From: a virus
Taxonomy: Duplodnaviria > Heunggongvirae > Uroviricota > Caudoviricetes
Direction: 5' to 3' (one strand)
IMG/VR virus record: IMGVR_UViG_2531839531_000011
Length of the DNA: 38,542 nt
The notes under the pieces are model-generated. The model did not search any database. It was not told where the DNA came from and saw only the letters and a program-made list of their open reading frames with translations. The translations under genes were made by a program, and so were the position numbers. Within the stretch, counting starts at the first letter, position 1; each line of letters starts with the position of its first letter. This document shows positions 5,753-13,199 of this stretch, piece by piece.

Positions 5753-6118
5753 ATGATTCTCGCCAACGACTTTCTTGAATACCTGCTCAACACAGAGCGT
5801 GATCTTGCCGCTCGCGTGCGTGATCGTTATGACATGTACCTGAAATCCCTGCCTGTACCGCAGCTCGCTGACGGAAAGATTGTTATTGATGGTCGTTACA
5901 TGATTGACAGCCACGAGGGAAATTACAGGCTTTACCGCATTGAAGGTGGCACCCCGTCCGTTATTGGCATTTACCAGCGCCCATCCTCTGCAATCGTCGA
6001 TGTGATTGCCGACAGCATCCGCATCACACATCGCCATGCCGACACAGAAGACACCGTGCTGGAAATTCAGCGGCTGGCTACAGTCTGCCGCGACACCCTG
6101 AATGGCATGACGAAGTAA
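5753..6118 (+). CDS. Hypothetical protein (121 aa) immediately upstream of gene A
   Basis: ORF with start overlapping previous stop region; no domain recognised. Confidence 0.5.
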   Translation: MILANDFLEYLLNTERDLAARVRDRYDMYLKSLPVPQLADGKIVIDGRYMIDSHEGNYRLYRIEGGTPSVIGIYQRPSSAIVDVIADSIRITHRHADTEDTVLEIQRLATVCRDTLNGMTK

Positions 6119-6124
6119 ATCACT

Positions 6125-8947
6125 ATGACGGCAGAGTACATCAGGGACTGGCAACAACCGCGCCACGCAGTGGGGCGTGAAGGAACGGGGATCCCCGCTC
6201 CTGAATCCGCGCTTTCCTCCTGGCTGGATGCCTACCGGGCAGAGAACGAGCGCCGCCAGGAAATGGCTGATGCGGCGTTCTCCGCCACGCCGCTGGGCAA
6301 CCTGATTAATAAAAGCCTGGACGCACAGGAAAAACAGGACAAAACCATCACACTGGCAGGAGACGCCAGAAAACAGGCACGCGGCGCGGTGGATGAAGCC
6401 ATGGCCTCGCTGCGCCTGCTGCCGTCCTATCTGCGCGATCCGCTTATTCGCCACCTCTCCTTCCTGCGCAAAAAACAGGAAGCCGATCGCCGGAAAGGCA
6501 AAAAGAGCTGGCAGGCTGAACGCTACGCGCGCGGAACCCTGCGCAAAATATTCGAACGTCTGGAGCGCACCGACAGCCGCTGGCTGACACCGGGTTATCG
6601 CTCCCTTGCCGGACGCGAACGCCTGGACGATTTGCTTTACCTGCCGCAGCTTAACAAGCACCAGATACAGACGCTGGCCACCATGACGGCGGCAATGTTC
6701 AGCAGCACCTTTGAGACTCTCTGTGATGGTTTCGGTGCCAGAGATGGCGAGCTGACCATGGATGTAACGCTGAAGGCGTATCAGATGCTGGCCCGCATGG
6801 CGTTACACCTGCACGCCATGCCTCCACATTATGACGCACTGACAACAGACAAAGACCGGAGGAACGAACCGGACACGGAACTGCTGCCGGGCGCAATCCT
6901 TCGCCTGACCTGTGCGGACTGGTGGAAACGCAAACTGTGGCTGTTACGTTGTGAGTGGCGGGAAGAACAACTCCGCGCCGCCTGTCTGGTTTCCAGAAAA
7001 ACATCACCCTATCTGAGCCAGGACGCGTTAAGCGAGTTTCGCGCACAGCGCGAGAAAACACGCGATTTCCTGAAAAGTTTCATGCTGGAAAATGAAGACG
7101 GGTTCACGATTGATCTCGAGACGGTGTATTACGCGGGAGTAAGTAACCCGGTTCACCGTAAGGCAGAAATGATGGCCACCATGAAGGGACTGGAACTTCT
7201 GGCCGAAGCCCGTGGCGACAAAGCGGTGTTTCTGACTGTCACCTGCCCGTCAAAATACCACGCCACAACAGAGAACGGTCATCCGAATCCCAAATGGAAC
7301 GGGGCCACCATGCGCGACTCCAGCGATTACCTGGTTAACACGTTTTTTGCGGCGGTCCGCAAAAAACTGAACCGCGACGGCCTGCGCTGGTATGGCATCC
7401 GCACGGTGGAGCCTCACCATGACGGCACCGTGCACTGGCATATGATGGTCTTTGCTCATCCGGAAGAAATCGACACCATTGTGTCCCACACCCGCGATAT
7501 TGCCATTCAGGAAGACCGCCACGAACTGGGCAATGATATTACTCCGCGCTTTAAGGCGGAGTACGTCGACGGCTCAAAAGGCACGCCAACCAGCTACATC
7601 GCCACCTACATCGGAAAGAACCTGGACAGCCACGCCGTGGATGGCATCGACCCGAAAACGGGCAAGCCACGCGTTGACCACGAAACCGGAAAATCAATGG
7701 CCGAGAGCGTGGAGCGCGCCATCGGCTGGGCGCGCCTTCACCGGGTCCGCCAGTTCCAGTTCTTTGGCATCCCCTCCCGTCAGGTGTGGCGTGAACTGCG
7801 CCGCCTTGCCAGCCAGATGGCACGCAACCCGGAAGGCCCGCAACGACTGAAGGATGACGCAATGGATGCAGTGCTCGCTGCCGCTGATGCCGGGTGTTTT
7901 GCCTCCTACATTGAAAAACAGGGCGGCGTACTTGTTCCACGCAAAGACTACCTGATTCGCACCGCCTACGACCTCGCAGATGAGCTGAACGATTACAGCG
8001 AACAGAGCGTACAGATTTACGGGATCTGGTCACCACTCATCGGGGAGTCCTCCCGTGTGTGCACGCATCCGGATAACTGGAAGCTGGTAAGACGCAAACC
8101 GGAAGCGGAAGACAGCGCCCGCGAAAATGGTTTTGACCTTCAGGGCGGCCCTGCCGCCCCTTGGACTCGTGGCAATAACTGTCCCCGTGTACAGGAAACG
8201 GACAACAACGGGACAGAACAGCCGGAAGAACGGCCAGCACCGTGGCCGCAGCTCCCTGACGGCGTTGAAGTGAACGAATGGATGCGCTCACTGAAACGGC
8301 ACGAACGCCGGGCGCTGATGCGTTCGCTTCGTGACAAACAGGCAAAAAACAGCAGTGATGAAATGCAGAGCTGGACACAGAGCCGCAAACAGCAGCGGCC
8401 TTTGCCTGATAACCACGAATTACTCGCTAAAGAATGGCGGGAGTCTGCTGAATCTCTCGGCCTGCATATCGGTGAACAGCAGATGCAGCACCTGTTACGG
8501 GGCGGCAGTCTGTACGTTGACGGCAGCATCATTGCACCGCAGGGATTTGAAATTGTACGCAAACCGGATACCCGCCCGGACAGCCGAATCACGCAGCTCT
8601 GGCAGCGCCTGAGCCGTAATCACGGCGTAAGCAGCACGGAGATCCGCCATAACCCGGTCGCCAGCTATCTGGCACAGCTGGGGGCATCAGACCCCGAAGC
8701 CGCCGCACGCCTGGCATCCACACTTCAGCAGGACCAGAACACCATGAAAACACCCGTTACCGTGCTTTCTGACATGCTGCGCGCCATCCGCGACGCAGAG
8801 TACGCACAGAGAATCTGTGAAACCACTGAACGCGCCCACCGCAAAGCAGACCTGCTGCGGGGTGGCCTGACCCGTGGGAACAAAAAACAGACAGAAACGG
8901 GATTCACAAATCCCGTAAATGAGCAAAAAACGCGCCGCGATATATGA
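6125..8947 (+). CDS. A: Replication initiation endonuclease (P2 gpA-like rolling-circle initiator) with long C-terminal extension
   Basis: 940 aa; motifs HDGTVHWHMMVF and YIATYIGK match the histidine and catalytic-tyrosine motifs I recall for GPA-family initiators. Confidence 0.85.
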   Translation: MTAEYIRDWQQPRHAVGREGTGIPAPESALSSWLDAYRAENERRQEMADAAFSATPLGNLINKSLDAQEKQDKTITLAGDARKQARGAVDEAMASLRLLPSYLRDPLIRHLSFLRKKQEADRRKGKKSWQAERYARGTLRKIFERLERTDSRWLTPGYRSLAGRERLDDLLYLPQLNKHQIQTLATMTAAMFSSTFETLCDGFGARDGELTMDVTLKAYQMLARMALHLHAMPPHYDALTTDKDRRNEPDTELLPGAILRLTCADWWKRKLWLLRCEWREEQLRAACLVSRKTSPYLSQDALSEFRAQREKTRDFLKSFMLENEDGFTIDLETVYYAGVSNPVHRKAEMMATMKGLELLAEARGDKAVFLTVTCPSKYHATTENGHPNPKWNGATMRDSSDYLVNTFFAAVRKKLNRDGLRWYGIRTVEPHHDGTVHWHMMVFAHPEEIDTIVSHTRDIAIQEDRHELGNDITPRFKAEYVDGSKGTPTSYIATYIGKNLDSHAVDGIDPKTGKPRVDHETGKSMAESVERAIGWARLHRVRQFQFFGIPSRQVWRELRRLASQMARNPEGPQRLKDDAMDAVLAAADAGCFASYIEKQGGVLVPRKDYLIRTAYDLADELNDYSEQSVQIYGIWSPLIGESSRVCTHPDNWKLVRRKPEAEDSARENGFDLQGGPAAPWTRGNNCPRVQETDNNGTEQPEERPAPWPQLPDGVEVNEWMRSLKRHERRALMRSLRDKQAKNSSDEMQSWTQSRKQQRPLPDNHELLAKEWRESAESLGLHIGEQQMQHLLRGGSLYVDGSIIAPQGFEIVRKPDTRPDSRITQLWQRLSRNHGVSSTEIRHNPVASYLAQLGASDPEAAARLASTLQQDQNTMKTPVTVLSDMLRAIRDAEYAQRICETTERAHRKADLLRGGLTRGNKKQTETGFTNPVNEQKTRRDI

Positions 8948-9023: not shown

Positions 9024-9983
9024 ATGAAAATTTGTATCGACGACGGCTCCACCAACATCAAGCTGGCATGGACTGAGAACGGCGAACGCCGCAACGCCAT
9101 CAGCCCGAACAGCTTCAAGTCGGAATGGTCTGCGCCGTTCGGTGGCACGCAGCCCGCAAACTACATGCTTGATGGCGTGCGCTATGGTTTTGATCCGGTC
9201 AGCGATCGCTTTGTCCAGACGACCGACACGCAATACCAGTACAGCGATGTGAATGTCATTGCCATTCATCACGCGCTGGTCAAATCAGGTATCACACCAC
9301 AGGAAGTGGATGTGGTTGTCACCCTGCCACTGAGCGAGTATTTCGACACAAACGCCCAGCCGGATATGACCAACATCAACCGCAAAAAAGCGAATGTTAT
9401 GCGCCCGGTGGAGTACCAGAACGGTGAGGCATTCACTATCCGTAACGTGCGGGTTATGCCTGAATCCATTCCGGCTGGCTTTAAAGCACTGGCTGACATG
9501 AGTCCGTTTGAATCCCTGCTGATTGTGGATTTAGGCGGAACCACGCTGGATGTGGCAAAGGTTCAGGGACAACTGGCAGGTATCAGCCAGGTGTTTTGCG
9601 ATCCACACGTAGGCGTTTCCCTGATGGCCGATGCAGTACTCTCGGTGATGGCCGCTAACGGTATGCGTACCAGTCACCACATCGCCAATACCATTATCGA
9701 ACATCGCCATGATGAAGCCTGGCTGCGCCAGCACATCCACAATGACGCGCATTACGCCAGCCTGATGGCGGTTATTCGTGAAAAGGAAGAAACACTGAAA
9801 CAACGCGTGATCCGCGCGCTGGCGGGTTTTTCGGGTTACGGGCGGGTGATGGTTGTCGGTGGCGGGGCGGAGATTGTGGCACCCGCTATCCGCGAAGCCT
9901 GCGGAGTTAATGCGACTTTCATCGCGGACGGGGTGCCACAGTTTGCTCTGGTTAAGGGGCTGTACGCAATGGACAAGGAGTAA
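9024..9983 (+). CDS. parM: ParM/StbA-like actin-fold partition ATPase
   Basis: 319 aa; N-terminus MKICIDDGSTNIKLAW and downstream blocks closely resemble recalled plasmid R1 ParM; DLGGTTLD phosphate motif. Confidence 0.8.
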   Translation: MKICIDDGSTNIKLAWTENGERRNAISPNSFKSEWSAPFGGTQPANYMLDGVRYGFDPVSDRFVQTTDTQYQYSDVNVIAIHHALVKSGITPQEVDVVVTLPLSEYFDTNAQPDMTNINRKKANVMRPVEYQNGEAFTIRNVRVMPESIPAGFKALADMSPFESLLIVDLGGTTLDVAKVQGQLAGISQVFCDPHVGVSLMADAVLSVMAANGMRTSHHIANTIIEHRHDEAWLRQHIHNDAHYASLMAVIREKEETLKQRVIRALAGFSGYGRVMVVGGGAEIVAPAIREACGVNATFIADGVPQFALVKGLYAMDKE

Positions 9984-9987
9984 ACCA

Positions 9988-10299
9988 ATGACGACTCCAA
10001 CCAGACGGATAAGTTTCTATCTGAAGCCCGCCGCCGTCAAGAACGAAGGTGAAGCATGCGCCTGGCTGGACAGCCTTACACCAGAAGCGCGCAAAAGCGG
10101 CCAACGCGTGGCTTTTCTGGCCGGGCTGGCACTTCTGAAAATGAATCCGGCAGAGGCTTACCGACTGGCTGCATGGGCTGATGATGAAGCGTTATCAGTG
10201 ACACAAACCAGGACAGAACGCCCCGCGTCACAGCCAGTATCAACCGCACAGATAACCAGTCAGATGGCCGGAAATATCCGGGCGTTATTTCCCGAATAA
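9988..10299 (+). CDS. parR: ParR-like DNA-binding adaptor
   Basis: 103 aa directly after parM with AAGGAG RBS; AFLAGLAL and C-terminal NIRALFPE resemble recalled R1 ParR. Confidence 0.55.
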   Translation: MTTPTRRISFYLKPAAVKNEGEACAWLDSLTPEARKSGQRVAFLAGLALLKMNPAEAYRLAAWADDEALSVTQTRTERPASQPVSTAQITSQMAGNIRALFPE

Positions 10300-10362: not shown

Positions 10363-10698
10363 ATGCAACACATTGACAGAGAAAAAGCGCAGCGACTGAT
10401 TGAGCGGATGGAAGCGCTGGCGAAAGAAGAAAATGTCAACATCCAAAAAATAGCTGAATGTGGCCAGATAGTTCTTCGTCGTGAAAAAGACCTCAAACAA
10501 CTGATGTCTGGCGAAACCAGCAAAACATGGACTTCAGGTGAGGAGACGATTTATTGCAGCTTCTGCAATAAATCCCAGTACGAAGTCACAAAGGTGATTG
10601 CCGGACCGTCTGTTTACATCTGCAATGAGTGCGTTGATTTGTGCAATGAAGTTATCAGGAGAGAAGTGACAGACCATGAAGAAAAAACGCATGAATGA
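10363..10698 (+). CDS. Stand-alone ClpX N-terminal-type C4 zinc-binding domain protein
   Basis: 111 aa; C-terminal block [38 protein letters not shown] matches the ClpX zinc-binding domain signature. Confidence 0.7.
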
Positions 10699-10864
10699 CG
10701 AATTTGACGGCTTTTAATTTTATCGGGGCGCACTGTCGCCCTGCATGGAGAAAAACAATAAAAAAGATGAATAACTGCTCATGTCAGACGCGCTGCGGGC
10801 AAGTCTGGCACCCTGCCCTGTCTCCGCAAAGGCTGTTGTCTTAACACGACAGAGTATGCCAGCA

Positions 10865-11272
10865 TTAAATATAATCTTCTTCGTAGTCGCTGATTAATTC
10901 ATTGCCATAATCAGACAGCAATTTCAAAGCAAAGGTAACTTCCTCAAGGGTAGCTATCCCCATTGCTGAAAACACCGTTAATTTAACCAGCAGCAGGGAG
11001 TTTGAAAGTTCGGAAGAGTTCATCATTAAAAATATTGATGCAGCCTGAAAAGCTGTGCGTTTATTCCCATCATGAAAGGCATGAGCCTTGGCTATACCAA
11101 TCAAATACATAGCAGCCAGAGCATGAATATCATCAACCCCTTCATAGTAGTGTAGTGTCCTGACGCGATTTAAAGCACCTTCAAGTAGCCCGTCATTGGC
11201 ATTTCCGCTCTGGGGTAAAGTTTCAGCATGGATACGTTCTACTTGTTCTTTTGACAAAAACACTATGTCCAT
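10865..11272 (-). CDS. doc: Doc (death-on-curing) Fic-family toxin
   Basis: 135 aa; Fic-type motif HAFHDGNKRTA; start overlaps antitoxin stop (TGATG). Confidence 0.85.
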   Translation of the reverse strand: MDIVFLSKEQVERIHAETLPQSGNANDGLLEGALNRVRTLHYYEGVDDIHALAAMYLIGIAKAHAFHDGNKRTAFQAASIFLMMNSSELSNSLLLVKLTVFSAMGIATLEEVTFALKLLSDYGNELISDYEEDYI

Positions 11273-11628
11273 CAGTTATCCTCAAGCTTTTTAATGATAT
11301 CCGCATGTTTTTCTCTTGTACGCTTCATTGCATCTTCAAAAGACAATCCTTTTTTTCTCTGTGCGACAAGAGCTGGATGACGTTTTTCCAGATCTCTCAC
11401 TGCATTTATTAAGAGTGGTTGCTTCATTTTGTTTATTTGATCCCGCAGTTTTTTGGTTTTGCCAAGGACAGCCCGTATTTCAGGACTAAGATCAGAACCA
11501 GCAAGAACAACATCCTTCCCTCCCTGCGCCGTGATAACGACACTGCCACCGGAAGAAAGGTAATCCAGAATTTCACTCAGGTTCTCACGAAATTCATCAT
11601 CAGTTACAGTTTTCATATTCATTTCCAT
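11272..11628 (-). CDS. phd: Phd/YefM-like antitoxin candidate (start may be a downstream Met)
   Basis: Small acidic-C-terminus protein immediately upstream of and coupled to doc. Confidence 0.6.
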   Translation of the reverse strand: MEMNMKTVTDDEFRENLSEILDYLSSGGSVVITAQGGKDVVLAGSDLSPEIRAVLGKTKKLRDQINKMKQPLLINAVRDLEKRHPALVAQRKKGLSFEDAMKRTREKHADIIKKLEDN

Positions 11629-11639
11629 TATGCACGCCC

Positions 11640-11740
11640 ATAACGTAAGTATAACGGCTTGTTGGGCAGTAATAACACCGCCATATTTTCATTTTATACA
11701 CCGCACAATAGTGCACAAATTTGCACAATTTTTTTGAACA
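11640..11740 (-). promoter_or_regulatory. Candidate phd-doc promoter/operator with repeated TGCACAA motifs
   Basis: gtgcacaaatttgcacaattttttt directly upstream of the antitoxin start. Confidence 0.3.
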
Positions 11741-12102
11741 ACTTTTTACCCTTCCGGCCCGCGTGGCGACTGGATCCGTCAAGGATCCGTGCGTGCACAA
11801 AAAAACGCGTTTTTTCTGCGCGCAGGTGACGGGGGAACAGCCCGCGTTTCAGGGGGTAAATAGCATTCCCTGAACGATGTCGCAGAGATACAACAGAATG
11901 GCTGTCTTTCTCACGCTGAGCGTGAAAAAGACGTGAGGTTTTTTGATTTGATGGGGTGGCAGATAAGGCCGTCAAAATCGCACTGAGGCGGCGAGAACAT
12001 GCAGTCAGCGCGATGGGATTGCGTAAGAGCCTGACCGCCGATGATGGCAATAAGCTGGAAGGCGTCGTGAAATTATCTGATTGATACAGGAGCTGGAGAG
12101 TC

Positions 12103-12125
12103 GGGGCATAAATTTTTTATGCCCC
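12103..12125. terminator. Palindromic hairpin GGGGCATAAA-TT-TTTATGCCCC downstream of portal gene (bidirectional terminator candidate)
   Basis: Near-perfect inverted repeat read directly. Confidence 0.4.
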
Positions 12126-12152
12126 GGCGAAGCAGCAGACAAGCGAAGCGCG

Positions 12153-13199
12153 TCAGGATGTGGGCGGGGTGTCCAGCAGTGCGTAAGGGTTAAAGCGGAT
12201 CACCTCTTCGCCAAGCCAGTCATTGATGTGCTTCATGGCCTCCATAACGGGCATCAGCTCGTTAATTGCATAAACCCGCGCGGCCTTCTCCACATCACCA
12301 AACGCACTTTTTTCGCCCGGCATCGCCCCCATCAGTTGCGGCGGAACGCGGTGCGCAGCCAGCACATCATCACGGGATGCCGCCTTAACATTCATGAACT
12401 CATCCTTTGCGGTGATCTGCTGGAACGGCAAAATTTGCACCCCCTCTTTGCCCCCGTTGGGCGCATGAATGAGCACGTTTTTAAATGCACCACCACCACG
12501 TGCACCCTGTAGCGTTTCCTTCAGGGAGTCCATGCTTTCGCGGTTTACCTGCGCTGCACCGATGTAGATGATGCACCCGGCGTGGGATCCATTGTCGTAG
12601 TACAGTTTTCTGAACATGTCCGCCGAATGAGACAGGCTGGCCGAGAGTAATGCGCCGAGATATTCCGGCATGCCGTAGATTTCCTGGTTAATGTCAGGAT
12701 TCATCAGGTGGCACACTTTGCCAGGGCGAAACTGAAACGCGTCCTTGCCATCCTGCACATACCACCATGATTCAAGATCGCTTCCGCGTCGCATGTATTT
12801 CGCCAGGGCGTGCCGTAATTTAAGCGGTTCGCCGAGCATATTGCTCCGAAGCTCAAGGAATGCGTTACCGAACACAAACCAGTCCAGCGCCAGCGCCGAG
12901 AAATCCTGCCGGGAAAGCAGCGGGTGCGGGATGTAGCAACTGAGCAATACATTACGCTTAAAGTAAAGCGCAGACTGATGCCAGGACGTTTGCCGGGCAG
13001 CTCTTGCCAGACCGTACCAGTCCACCGGGGTTTCATACCACCGCCCGTTATCAGCACAGTACATATTGTCCAGCAAATCATGCCCGGTCAGGCGATAAGG
13101 ACCATCAAATGTGAATGCACTGAGCGACGATTCTTTCCTGAGCGCATCAGCGAGATCAATGCGTGAACTCATGCGCACTTTTTTATTTTTTCTGCTCAT
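12153..13199 (-). CDS. Q: Portal protein (P2 gpQ-like)
   Basis: 348 aa; position and divergent arrangement with terminase as in P2. Confidence 0.85.
   Translation of the reverse strand: MSRKNKKVRMSSRIDLADALRKESSLSAFTFDGPYRLTGHDLLDNMYCADNGRWYETPVDWYGLARAARQTSWHQSALYFKRNVLLSCYIPHPLLSRQDFSALALDWFVFGNAFLELRSNMLGEPLKLRHALAKYMRRGSDLESWWYVQDGKDAFQFRPGKVCHLMNPDINQEIYGMPEYLGALLSASLSHSADMFRKLYYDNGSHAGCIIYIGAAQVNRESMDSLKETLQGARGGGAFKNVLIHAPNGGKEGVQILPFQQITAKDEFMNVKAASRDDVLAAHRVPPQLMGAMPGEKSAFGDVEKAARVYAINELMPVMEAMKHINDWLGEEVIRFNPYALLDTPPTS

What the first reader, a model, noticed from the sequence alone, without database searches (positions are those of the whole stretch)
10865..11740. Phd-Doc type II toxin-antitoxin cassette as hotspot cargo next to the candidate cos region
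The Doc toxin carries the Fic motif HAFHDGNKRTA and its start overlaps the upstream antitoxin stop (TGATG). The promoter region has TGCACAA repeats. The pair is AT-rich and sits just before the portal-side terminator, consistent with a mobile addiction or abortive-infection module.
Basis: partly seen in the sequence, partly recalled or inferred. Interest (0 to 1): 0.4.

Follow-up and report, generated by a model that had tools for sequence, protein, structure and literature searches.

The report
Phd-Doc toxin-antitoxin pair in P2-like prophage
This is an ordinary, already annotated Phd-Doc toxin-antitoxin gene pair carried as accessory cargo beside the DNA-packaging (cos) site of a P2/P88-like E. 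coli prophage, at a published hotspot for accessory and anti-phage genes.

Summary
On the minus strand, a 135-aa Doc toxin (10865-11272, motif HAFHDGNKRTA) follows a 114-aa Phd-like antitoxin (11272-11616). Stop and start overlap as TGATG. The pair has 41% GC against 52-58% around it.

The window is a P88-like (Xuanwuvirus, P2 family) prophage. The cassette (about 10840-11702) lies at the cos-proximal edge of the gpA-to-portal accessory hotspot.

The identical pair occurs in 20 of 5,426 complete E. coli genomes, where RefSeq names it a Doc toxin and a Phd/YefM antitoxin. This exact arrangement is listed in Table S5A of Rousset et al. 2022.

Two corrections:
- The TGCACAA repeats belong to the phage backbone, not the cassette. 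They are present in 1,099 E. coli genomes and at least 120 viral contigs, nearly all without phd-doc.
- The antitoxin is atypical. It has a Phd/YefM-fold N-domain, a variable linker of about 45 residues, and an invariant C-terminal helix.

Divergent homologues in about seven enterobacterial genera all sit in the same place and orientation next to cos.

The most likely mechanism is EF-Tu phosphorylation by Doc, held in check by the antitoxin. The biological role (phage exclusion or prophage retention) is untested. Interest is low: it is already known.

The parts
10865..11272 (-). doc: 135-aa Doc-family (Fic-fold) toxin. Doc-type motif H64-A-F-H-D68-G-N70-K71-R72-T-A. Identical to RefSeq WP_001561009.
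   Evidence: Pfam Fic E 3.5e-11. TIGR01550 DOC_P1 53.6 bits against a cut-off of 38.65. P1 Doc 3K33 E 6e-13, ungapped over 97 residues. PHROG 577 'Doc-like toxin' E 2.9e-26. 100% DNA identity to the annotated locus.
11272..11616 (-). phd-like antitoxin, 114 aa (an alternative in-frame ATG at 11628 is not conserved). It has a Phd/YefM-fold N-domain (residues 1-42), a variable helical linker (about 45-90), and an invariant C-terminal helix LSFEDAMKRTREKHADIIKKLEDN. Identical to WP_001561011.
   Evidence: Pfam PhdYeFM_antitox 29.2 bits, just under the gathering score of 29.8. PHROG 375 'Phd-like antitoxin' E 2.4e-4. AlphaFold model pLDDT 70 (N-domain 82). All top Foldseek PDB hits are Phd/YefM, e.g. 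4ZLX rmsd 1.0 A over 39 columns. Alignment A2. 33% identity over 42 aa to a classic 73-aa Phd.
11270..11274 (-). TGATG stop/start overlap (translational coupling). The doc Shine-Dalgarno GAGGAT lies at 11283-11278.
   Evidence: Read directly from the sequence.
11640..11678 (-). Cassette-specific upstream block conserved across genera: GTGTTAT (11678-11672), CGTTATACTTACGTTAT (11656-11640) holding a -10-like TATACT (11653-11648) and repeated GTTAT motifs. This is the candidate phd-doc promoter/operator. The SD TGGAAA is at 11627-11622.
   Evidence: Alignment A5 of eight loci from different genera. Motif coordinates. Function is inferred. The consensus promoter scan did not call it.
11702..11728 (.). 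Three 10-bp-phased (T/C)GCACAA repeats (TTGTGCA on the minus strand). They are part of the conserved cos-flanking phage backbone, not of the cassette.
   Evidence: Homology with P88, 569R5, HNSQ2209 and P88_4B11, which carry other cargo, starts at 11703. The backbone segment is in 1,099 E. coli genomes against 20 with the cassette. The exact repeat is in at least 120 viral contigs, only one of which carries this phd-doc.
10840..11702 (.). Extent of the phd-doc cargo segment, defined by where homology to related prophages is lost.
   Evidence: blastn against L003 (shared 10692-10839 and 11703-12300) and against P88 L004 (shared up to 10695 and from 11703).
11747..11780 (.). Approximate cos position. 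A deposited linear P88-like genome (LR595891) opens at the position equivalent to 11747. GCGTGGCG at 11761-11768 resembles the start of the cohesive end of phage 186 (recalled from memory).
   Evidence: The exact cut site was not determined here.

Best explanation
This is an intact two-gene type II toxin-antitoxin operon of the Phd-Doc family, carried as accessory cargo at the cos-proximal edge of the gpA-to-portal variable region of a P88-like (P2-family) E. coli prophage.

Mechanism, inferred from the family:
- The operon is transcribed away from cos, from a cassette-borne promoter about 30-60 bp upstream of the antitoxin. The two genes are translationally coupled through TGATG.
- Doc is a Fic-fold kinase that phosphorylates EF-Tu and stops translation.
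- The antitoxin dimerises and binds operator DNA through its Phd/YefM N-domain. It neutralises Doc with its invariant C-terminal helix.
- If the antitoxin is no longer made, because the element is lost or host expression is shut off, proteolysis frees Doc.

Biological role, inferred and not shown. My estimates for each role:
- About 0.4: exclusion of competing phages by abortive infection, as with old and tin at the same position in P2.
- About 0.3: retention of the prophage, including any episomal phase supported by the adjacent ParMR.
- About 0.25: a selfish passenger with no benefit to the host or phage.

The confidence given (0.8) is for the identity and molecular mechanism, not for any one biological role.
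For: Shown:
- Doc membership by three profile libraries and by P1 Doc structures, with the Doc-specific HxFxDGNKR motif.
- Phd/YefM fold of the antitoxin N-domain.
- Stop/start overlap and a Shine-Dalgarno sequence.
- Both ORFs are intact and 100% identical to RefSeq loci annotated as Doc toxin and Phd/YefM antitoxin.
- Prophage context of integrase, gpA, ParM, ParR, ClpX-ZnF, doc, phd, cos, portal and terminase.
- Cargo status: the cassette is in 20 of 5,426 genomes and the backbone in 1,099, with other genes at the same site in P88, 569R5 and HNSQ2209.
- The same arrangement is listed in Rousset et al. 2022 Table S5A, and the gpA-gpQ locus is described there as an accessory and defence hotspot.
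- Purifying selection: Doc is 81-89% identical, and the antitoxin termini are invariant, in homologous pairs from about seven genera, always in the same place and orientation.
- P2's mapped old-tin transcript starts about 150-170 bp from cosR and reads in the same direction.

From the literature: Doc phosphorylates EF-Tu and Phd-C neutralises it (Castro-Roa 2013 and Garcia-Pino 2008, as cited in PMC10440598).
Against: - There is no functional data for this pair. Rousset et al. list the arrangement, and no test of it was found in their main text.
- The antitoxin is below the curated Pfam and TIGRFAM cut-offs and has no sequence match in the PDB.
- The antitoxin C-terminal helix shows no detectable sequence similarity to P1 Phd-C by BLAST. 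The neutralisation mode is therefore inferred.
- The antitoxin model is only moderately confident (pLDDT 70; 54-66 in the C-terminal half).
- No antitoxin model and no dedicated Doc model exists in PADLOC. Doc gives only weak hits to Fic-domain candidate systems.
- No consensus sigma-70 promoter or intrinsic terminator was called for the operon.
- The target of this Doc is assumed to be EF-Tu, not shown.
Confidence: 0.8

Rival explanations
1. The pair is mainly a post-segregational addiction module that stabilises the prophage. It would work together with the neighbouring ParM/ParR partition genes during an episomal phase, as Phd-Doc and ParAB do on the P1 plasmid prophage.
For: The founding Phd-Doc system is the P1 addiction module (P1 Doc is the best PDB match). 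ParM and a Plasmid_stab_B protein lie 0.6-1.8 kb away. Rousset et al. suggest that the partition genes found in about a quarter of P2-like phages may allow maintenance as plasmids.
Against: The prophage is chromosomally integrated, with an integrase, next to btuC. All but one of the E. coli matches to the queried cassette/cos segment are chromosomal. The cassette persists where parMR is deleted (UPEC132, L072) and occurs without parMR in L007, L008, L009 and L013-L016. Most ParMR-bearing relatives lack phd-doc.
Confidence: 0.3
2. The pair is a selfish passenger. It persists only because it is hard to lose and because the conserved cos flank lets it recombine between P2-like phages, with no benefit to phage or host.
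For: Prevalence is low (20 of 5,426 genomes; 1 of 120 viral contigs carrying the backbone repeat). Doc is more conserved (81-89%) than portal (68-79%) or gpA (30-35%) in the more distant relatives, which fits horizontal spread. Decayed remnants occur in Symbiopectobacterium.
Against: Both genes and the upstream block are maintained intact across about seven genera at one fixed position. The locus is one where tested cargo often confers phage resistance.
Confidence: 0.25
3. The toxin is not a Doc-type kinase. It would be a class I Fic AMP-transferase (FicT) held in check by a FicA-type inhibitory antitoxin.
For: It has the same Fic fold and Pfam family. The weak PADLOC hits are to larger Fic-domain candidate defence proteins.
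Against: The motif is HAFHDGNKRTAF. It has Lys where AMPylating Fic proteins have the second Gly, and it lacks the final Arg of HxFx(D/E)GNGRxxR. This is the Doc signature, identical in pattern to P1 Doc HIFNDANKRTAL. The size of 135 aa matches Doc. The protein passes the Doc-specific TIGR01550 cut-off. By my own reading of the translation, the antitoxin has no (S/T)xxxE(G/N) inhibitory motif.
Confidence: 0.04
4. The TGCACAA repeats are the operator/promoter through which the antitoxin autoregulates the operon.
For: The repeats lie 86-112 bp upstream of the antitoxin ATG. In the window and in L007, repeat 2 (TTGTGC) sits 16 bp from a TAAAAT hexamer (11696-11691), which could form a promoter. 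P2 has analogous TGCAT repeats just upstream of the mapped old-tin transcript start.
Against: The repeats are conserved in about 1,080 E. coli genomes and in 119 of 120 viral contigs that lack this antitoxin. The TAAAAT hexamer is not conserved in the Edwardsiella, Enterobacter, Klebsiella or Citrobacter homologues, whereas the downstream GTGTTAT...CGTTATACT block is. A fourth copy lies on the other side of cos. A packaging or other phage function fits better.
Confidence: 0.1

Closest known systems
Phd-Doc of plasmid prophage P1 (PDB 3K33, 3DD7, 3KH2; TIGR01550/TIGR01552)
   Same: - Two-gene operon with the antitoxin first and overlapping stop/start.
- The toxin aligns without gaps over 97 residues (35% identity) and keeps the HxFx(D/N)(A/G)NKRTA catalytic loop.
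- The antitoxin N-domain has the Phd/YefM fold and the F-R-x-NLSE(V/I)L signature.
- It is carried by a temperate phage.
   Different: - The antitoxin is 114 aa, not 73. It has an extra, variable linker of about 45 residues, and a C-terminal helix (…KHADIIKKLEDN) with no BLAST-detectable similarity to P1 Phd-C.
- Doc carries an extra acidic 15-residue tail.
- The host element is an integrated P2-family prophage, not a plasmid prophage.
old and tin at the cos-proximal gpA-gpQ hotspot of phage P2, and the hotspot cargo catalogued by Rousset et al. 2022
   Same: - Same genomic slot, between the replication gene A and cos/portal Q.
- Same transcription direction, away from cos, starting roughly 130-170 bp from the cohesive end.
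- AT-rich, swappable cargo.
- This exact domain arrangement, with WP_001561011, is in their Table S5A.
   Different: old is an OLD-family ATPase/nuclease and tin is a T-even exclusion protein. Neither is homologous to Phd-Doc. Anti-phage activity is shown for old-tin and for some other cargo, but not for this pair.
Short classic Phd-Doc pairs at the same cos edge in other P2-like phages (IMG/VR loci L024, L061, L116)
   Same: The Doc is 43% identical with the same motif. The Phd N-domain is 33% identical. These pairs lie within about 100-700 bp of the same TTGTGCA backbone repeats.
   Different: The antitoxin is 73 aa, as in P1. The operon is in the opposite orientation, transcribed toward cos.

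Membership tests
Doc toxin (Fic/Doc superfamily, TIGR01550 DOC_P1) | Scores above the curated cut-offs of the Fic (PF02661) and Doc-specific (TIGR01550) profiles | tested here: met
   PF02661 44.2 bits against 24. TIGR01550 53.6 bits against 38.65.
Doc toxin (Fic/Doc superfamily, TIGR01550 DOC_P1) | Doc-type active-site loop HxFx(D/N)(A/G)NKR, with Lys replacing the second Gly of the AMPylating Fic motif | tested here: met
   H64-A-F-H-D-G-N-K71-R72 aligns column for column with P1 H66-I-F-N-D-A-N-K73-R74. It is invariant in four homologues.
Doc toxin (Fic/Doc superfamily, TIGR01550 DOC_P1) | Small single-domain protein (about 125-135 aa) encoded directly downstream of, and coupled to, a Phd/YefM-type antitoxin | tested here: met
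   135 aa, with a TGATG overlap to the upstream ORF. The same arrangement is found in all homologous loci.
Doc toxin (Fic/Doc superfamily, TIGR01550 DOC_P1) | Kinase activity on EF-Tu causing translation arrest, and toxicity relieved by the antitoxin | not testable with these tools
   This needs expression and biochemical assays.
Phd/YefM antitoxin (PF02604, TIGR01552) | Scores above the curated profile cut-offs | tested here: not met
   PF02604 29.2 bits against 29.8 (a borderline miss, N-terminal 38 residues only). TIGR01552 16.6 against 20.8. Some homologues carry a precomputed PF02604 hit. RefSeq nevertheless names it Phd/YefM family.
Phd/YefM antitoxin (PF02604, TIGR01552) | N-terminal beta-alpha-alpha-beta-beta dimerisation/DNA-binding fold of Phd/YefM | tested here: met
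   The model has E2-5, H6-11, H13-21, E25-29 and E35-39, with pLDDT about 82 over this domain. The 39 best Foldseek PDB hits are Phd, YefM, VapB46-N or RelB-type antitoxins, for example 4ZLX at rmsd 1.0 A and 33% identity, although E-values are only about 1e-3.
Phd/YefM antitoxin (PF02604, TIGR01552) | C-terminal segment that folds onto and neutralises the cognate toxin | tested here: inconclusive
   An invariant C-terminal helix (residues 91-114) is the most conserved part of the family, including distant relatives. No complex could be modelled, and no sequence similarity to P1 Phd-C was detected.
Phd/YefM antitoxin (PF02604, TIGR01552) | Autorepression by binding operator repeats in its own promoter; lability to a host protease | not testable with these tools
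   Only a conserved candidate block (11640-11678) was identified.
P2-family cos-proximal accessory/defence hotspot cargo (Rousset et al. 2022) | Located between replication gene A and portal gene Q of a P2-like phage, adjacent to cos, and replaced by other genes in close relatives | tested here: met
   Gene order. Replacement in P88, 569R5 and HNSQ2209, with break points at 10696/10840 and 11702. The arrangement is listed in Table S5A.
Anti-phage defence system (abortive infection) | Demonstrated reduction of phage plating, or membership of a validated defence family | tested here: not met
   PADLOC gives only weak hits of Doc to unvalidated Fic-domain candidates (PDC-S23 E 7e-6) and none for the antitoxin. 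No report of Phd-Doc phage defence was found in the literature searches. A phenotype cannot be tested here.

The most novel reading that the evidence does not exclude
This may be a distinct Phd-Doc lineage restricted to the P2 family and fixed at the cos edge of the hotspot. Its long-linker antitoxin (Phd N-domain, variable linker of about 45 residues, invariant C-helix) would act as a sensor that releases Doc during superinfection. That would make Doc-mediated EF-Tu phosphorylation a true abortive-infection defence. The neighbouring free ClpX zinc-finger protein might tune ClpXP-dependent turnover of the antitoxin, so that the phage's own lytic growth does not trigger it.
Probability: 0.12. 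Interest if true: 0.45.

Novelty: already known. Interest (0 to 1): 0.12.

Why it matters
It matters little beyond bookkeeping. The pair confirms that the cos-proximal slot of P2-like prophages carries toxin-antitoxin cargo as well as recognised defence systems. It also provides a clean, small candidate (863 bp) for testing whether a Doc kinase can act as a phage-exclusion effector, which no paper found in the searches reports.

The comparative result may help anyone studying how hotspot cargo is exchanged. The lineage is always in the same place and orientation in about seven genera. Doc is more conserved than the phage's own structural genes, and the antitoxin linker evolves fast.

Tried and rejected
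- The TGCACAA repeats as cassette operators. Rejected because they belong to the backbone shared with phages that lack the cassette.
- A consensus sigma-70 promoter or intrinsic terminator for the operon. None was called on the minus strand. The region downstream of doc folds no better than shuffled sequence (z -0.06).
- A sequence search of the antitoxin against the PDB. No hit, even at E 1.
- A FicT/FicA AMPylase reading. Rejected on the motif.
- A functional link between the cassette and ParMR or the ClpX-ZnF gene. Each occurs far more often without phd-doc, and phd-doc occurs without them. The ClpX-ZnF adjacency recurs in L007, but that is not evidence of dependence.
- Literature searches for Phd-Doc or Doc as a phage-defence system. 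Nothing specific was found. The 2026 NAR paper on P2/P4 hotspots does not mention Doc, Phd, Fic, ParM or ClpX in its main text.
- BLAST detection of Phd-C similarity between this antitoxin and a classic 73-aa Phd. Only the N-domain aligned.
- A Doc-antitoxin complex could not be modelled, because the tool predicts single chains only.

Full report
**What is in the sequence**

The finding's coordinates cover two minus-strand ORFs.
- The downstream ORF (10865-11272, 135 aa) contains HAFHDGNKRTA at residues 64-74.
- The upstream ORF runs from 11628 or 11616 to 11272.
- The reverse complement of 11270-11274 is TGATG. The antitoxin stop (TGA, 11274-11272) and the doc start (ATG, 11272-11270) therefore share one base.
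- A GAGGAT Shine-Dalgarno sequence lies 5 nt upstream of the doc start.
- Alignment of homologues shows that the conserved antitoxin start is the ATG at 11616 (MKTVTD...). The upstream ATG is replaced by CTG in two relatives, while a TGGAAA Shine-Dalgarno is invariant. RefSeq uses the same start.
- The cassette is 40.8% GC. parM, gpA and portal are 54-58%, and the whole window is 52.3%.

**Identity of the toxin**

The 135-aa protein passes the curated cut-offs of Pfam Fic (44.2 against 24 bits) and of the Doc-specific TIGR01550 (53.6 against 38.65). It matches PHROG 577 'Doc-like toxin' at E 2.9e-26.

It aligns without gaps over 97 residues to the crystallised P1 Doc (3K33, E 6e-13). H64-x-F-x-D68-G-N70-K71-R72 falls on P1 H66-x-F-x-D70-A-N72-K73-R74.

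The lysine in place of the second glycine of the AMPylating Fic motif, and the absence of the final arginine, mark it as Doc-type. From the literature (Castro-Roa 2013, cited in PMC10440598), such proteins are kinases of EF-Tu. The FicT/FicA reading is therefore rejected.

**Identity of the antitoxin**

This is the weaker leg by sequence.
- Only the first 40 or so residues match Phd/YefM, just under the thresholds: Pfam 29.2 against 29.8, TIGR01552 16.6 against 20.8, PHROG 375 E 2.4e-4.
- There is no sequence match in the PDB.
- An AlphaFold model built on 15 homologues has pLDDT 70 (about 82 over the N-domain). It gives strand-helix-helix-strand-strand followed by helices at 45-63, 66-79, 81-84 and 93-113.
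- Its best Foldseek hits in the PDB are all Phd, YefM and related antitoxins. 4ZLX, the P1 Phd DNA-binding domain, fits at rmsd 1.0 A over 39 columns with 33% identity. E-values are only about 1e-3.
- A pairwise BLAST against a classic 73-aa Phd found in another P2-like phage gives 33% identity over residues 1-42.

The protein is therefore a Phd/YefM N-domain, followed by a poorly conserved linker of about 45 residues, and ending in an invariant helix, LSFEDAMKRTREKHADIIKKLEDN.

An exhaustive profile search finds only about 60 representatives among 1.84 billion proteins. Full-length relatives keep the same plan and the C-terminal ...KHAxIIKxLED(N/K) signature. One distant relative that was examined is again followed by an overlapping 135-aa Fic gene. 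By analogy with Phd-C, I take the C-helix to be the segment that neutralises Doc. This is inferred, not shown.

**Genomic context**

The window is a P88-like (Xuanwuvirus, Peduoviridae) prophage. The gene order is integrase, early genes, gpA replication endonuclease (6125-8947), ParM (9024-9983), ParR/StbB-like (9988-10299), a ClpX zinc-finger protein (10363-10698), doc, phd, cos region, portal (12153-13199, minus strand), terminase and capsid genes.

blastn against relatives fixes the cargo boundaries.
- P88 shares sequence up to 10695 and again from 11703.
- E. coli HNSQ2209 shares sequence up to 10300, then 10692-10839, then from 11703.
- The phd-doc segment is therefore about 10840-11702. 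The ClpX-ZnF gene is a separate insert.

Other genes occupy the slot in P88, 569R5 and HNSQ2209.

The full cassette occurs in 20 of 5,426 complete E. coli genomes, whereas the adjoining backbone occurs in 1,099. A linear P88-like genome record opens at the position equivalent to 11747, so cos lies roughly 130 bp from the antitoxin start.

**Already described**

Rousset et al. 2022 (PMC9122126) define the gpA-gpQ, cos-adjacent locus of P2-like phages as a hotspot of accessory and anti-phage genes. They note that about a quarter of these phages carry partition genes.

[quoted passage not shown] No test of this arrangement was found in their main text, which reports eight additional P2-hotspot systems plus old-tin as cloned. 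No paper found in three searches shows Phd-Doc acting in phage defence.

**The TGCACAA repeats**

The repeats are real. There are three copies at 10-bp phase (11702-11728) and a fourth at 11794-11800. However, they begin exactly where homology with cargo-different relatives resumes, and they are identical in P88, 569R5, HNSQ2209 and P88_4B11. The 18-mer TTGTGCAAATTTGTGCAC occurs in at least 120 viral contigs. Most of these have a portal gene nearby, and only one carries this phd-doc. The repeats are a backbone element.

P2 itself has TGCAT repeats at a similar phase just upstream of the mapped old-tin transcript start, about 150-170 bp from cosR. A role in a cos-proximal outward promoter or in packaging is therefore possible, but it is not specific to the TA pair.

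What is specific to the cassette, and conserved from E. coli to Edwardsiella, Klebsiella and Symbiopectobacterium, is the block GTGTTAT...CGTTATACTTACGYTATGG (11678-11640). It holds a -10-like TATACT and repeated GTTAT motifs. That block is my candidate promoter/operator. The simple consensus scan did not call it.

**Comparative picture**

Homologous pairs from Edwardsiella piscicida, Enterobacter hormaechei, Klebsiella, Citrobacter youngae, Symbiopectobacterium, and further E. coli or unnamed assemblies all show the same order: terminase, portal, about 0.45-0.55 kb, phd, doc, and then gpA.

Identity to the window's proteins in these loci:

| Protein | Identity |
|---|---|
| Doc | 81-89% |
| Antitoxin | 53-64% |
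| Portal | 68-99% |
| gpA | 30-51% |

Most of these loci lack ParMR and ClpX-ZnF. Two E. coli variants have lost parR and ClpX-ZnF by deletion but keep phd-doc. Two Symbiopectobacterium loci keep only the last 27 codons of the antitoxin.

The lineage is thus tied to the cos edge of P2-family phages. It is under purifying selection on Doc and on the antitoxin termini, and it does not depend on its neighbours in this window.

**Mechanism and role**

I commit to the standard Phd-Doc mechanism: a coupled operon, autorepression through the Phd N-domain, neutralisation through the C-helix, and EF-Tu phosphorylation once the antitoxin decays. Confidence in the identity and molecular mechanism is about 0.8.

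The role is inferred only. My estimates:
- About 0.4: phage exclusion by abortive infection. This is favoured by the slot, by the orientation shared with old-tin, and by the behaviour of other cargo at the hotspot.
- About 0.3: prophage retention or addiction.
- About 0.25: a selfish passenger.

**Verdict**

This is a correct but ordinary finding. The pair is annotated in RefSeq and catalogued in the literature, and only its phenotype is unknown.

Noticed in passing
window 10363-10698 (+): A 111-aa protein made of an N-terminal coiled region plus a ClpX-type C4 zinc finger (Pfam E 2.9e-17), with no ATPase domain. It is a separate insert relative to HNSQ2209. It is present in 112 of 5,426 E. 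coli genomes, mostly followed by a different hypothetical gene as in P88. It lies convergent to doc both here and, at 93% identity, in L007 next to a 64%-identical antitoxin. P1 Phd is a ClpXP substrate (my own knowledge: Lehnherr & Yarmolinsky 1995), so a free zinc-binding domain might modulate antitoxin turnover. It could equally protect phage proteins.
   Followed up: partly
window 9024-10299 (+): ParM (StbA_N plus ParM C-terminal domain, E 1e-82) and a Plasmid_stab_B (ParR-like) gene sit directly after gpA in a chromosomally integrated prophage. Rousset et al. note such partition genes in about a quarter of P2-like phages. Whether these phages have an episomal phase is open.
   Followed up: partly
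window 11702-11728 and 11794-11800; P2 locus L011 3950-3990: Three 10-bp-phased TTGTGCA repeats and a fourth copy across the presumed cos are conserved in all P88-like backbones, even where the surrounding cos region has diverged (Edwardsiella, L009). P2 has TGCAT repeats at a similar phase, upstream of the mapped old-tin transcript start. Their function is unknown (terminase or cos recognition, or an outward hotspot promoter).
   Followed up: partly
L024 8164-8765 (also L061, L116): A second Phd-Doc lineage sits against the same backbone repeats in other P2-like phages, but in the opposite orientation (transcribed toward cos). It has a classic 73-aa Phd and a 127-aa Doc that is 43% identical to the window's, with motif HIFNDGNKRTAF. 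By eye, its Phd C-terminus (...RHGRTIKALADR) resembles the ...KHADIIKKLEDN tail of the window's antitoxin.
   Followed up: partly
window 12157-12171; L002 6503-7027, L005 4030-4554: A second small variable site lies between the cos region and the portal stop. UPEC132, 569R5 and probably L072 carry an extra 525-nt hypothetical ORF there that this window lacks.
   Followed up: no
window 11790-11824, 11904-11932, 12102-12126: Three inverted repeats lie in the cos-to-portal interval: TGCGTGCACAAAAAA/TTTTTTCTGCGCGCA, GTCTTTCTCACGCT/AGCGTGAAAAAGAC, and a perfect 11-bp hairpin CGGGGCATAAA-TTT-TTTATGCCCCG 27 bp past the portal stop. All are in the segment conserved among P88-like phages.
   Followed up: no
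L017 and L018 (Symbiopectobacterium sp. RP), 6001-6081: Two P2-like prophage copies in one genome keep only the last 27 codons of the antitoxin and no doc. These appear to be decayed remnants of the cassette.
   Followed up: no
L001 14454-15501 compared with window 12153-13199: The otherwise 98%-identical prophage in E. coli C7 has a frameshifted portal gene. In this window the portal ORF is intact at 348 aa.
   Followed up: no
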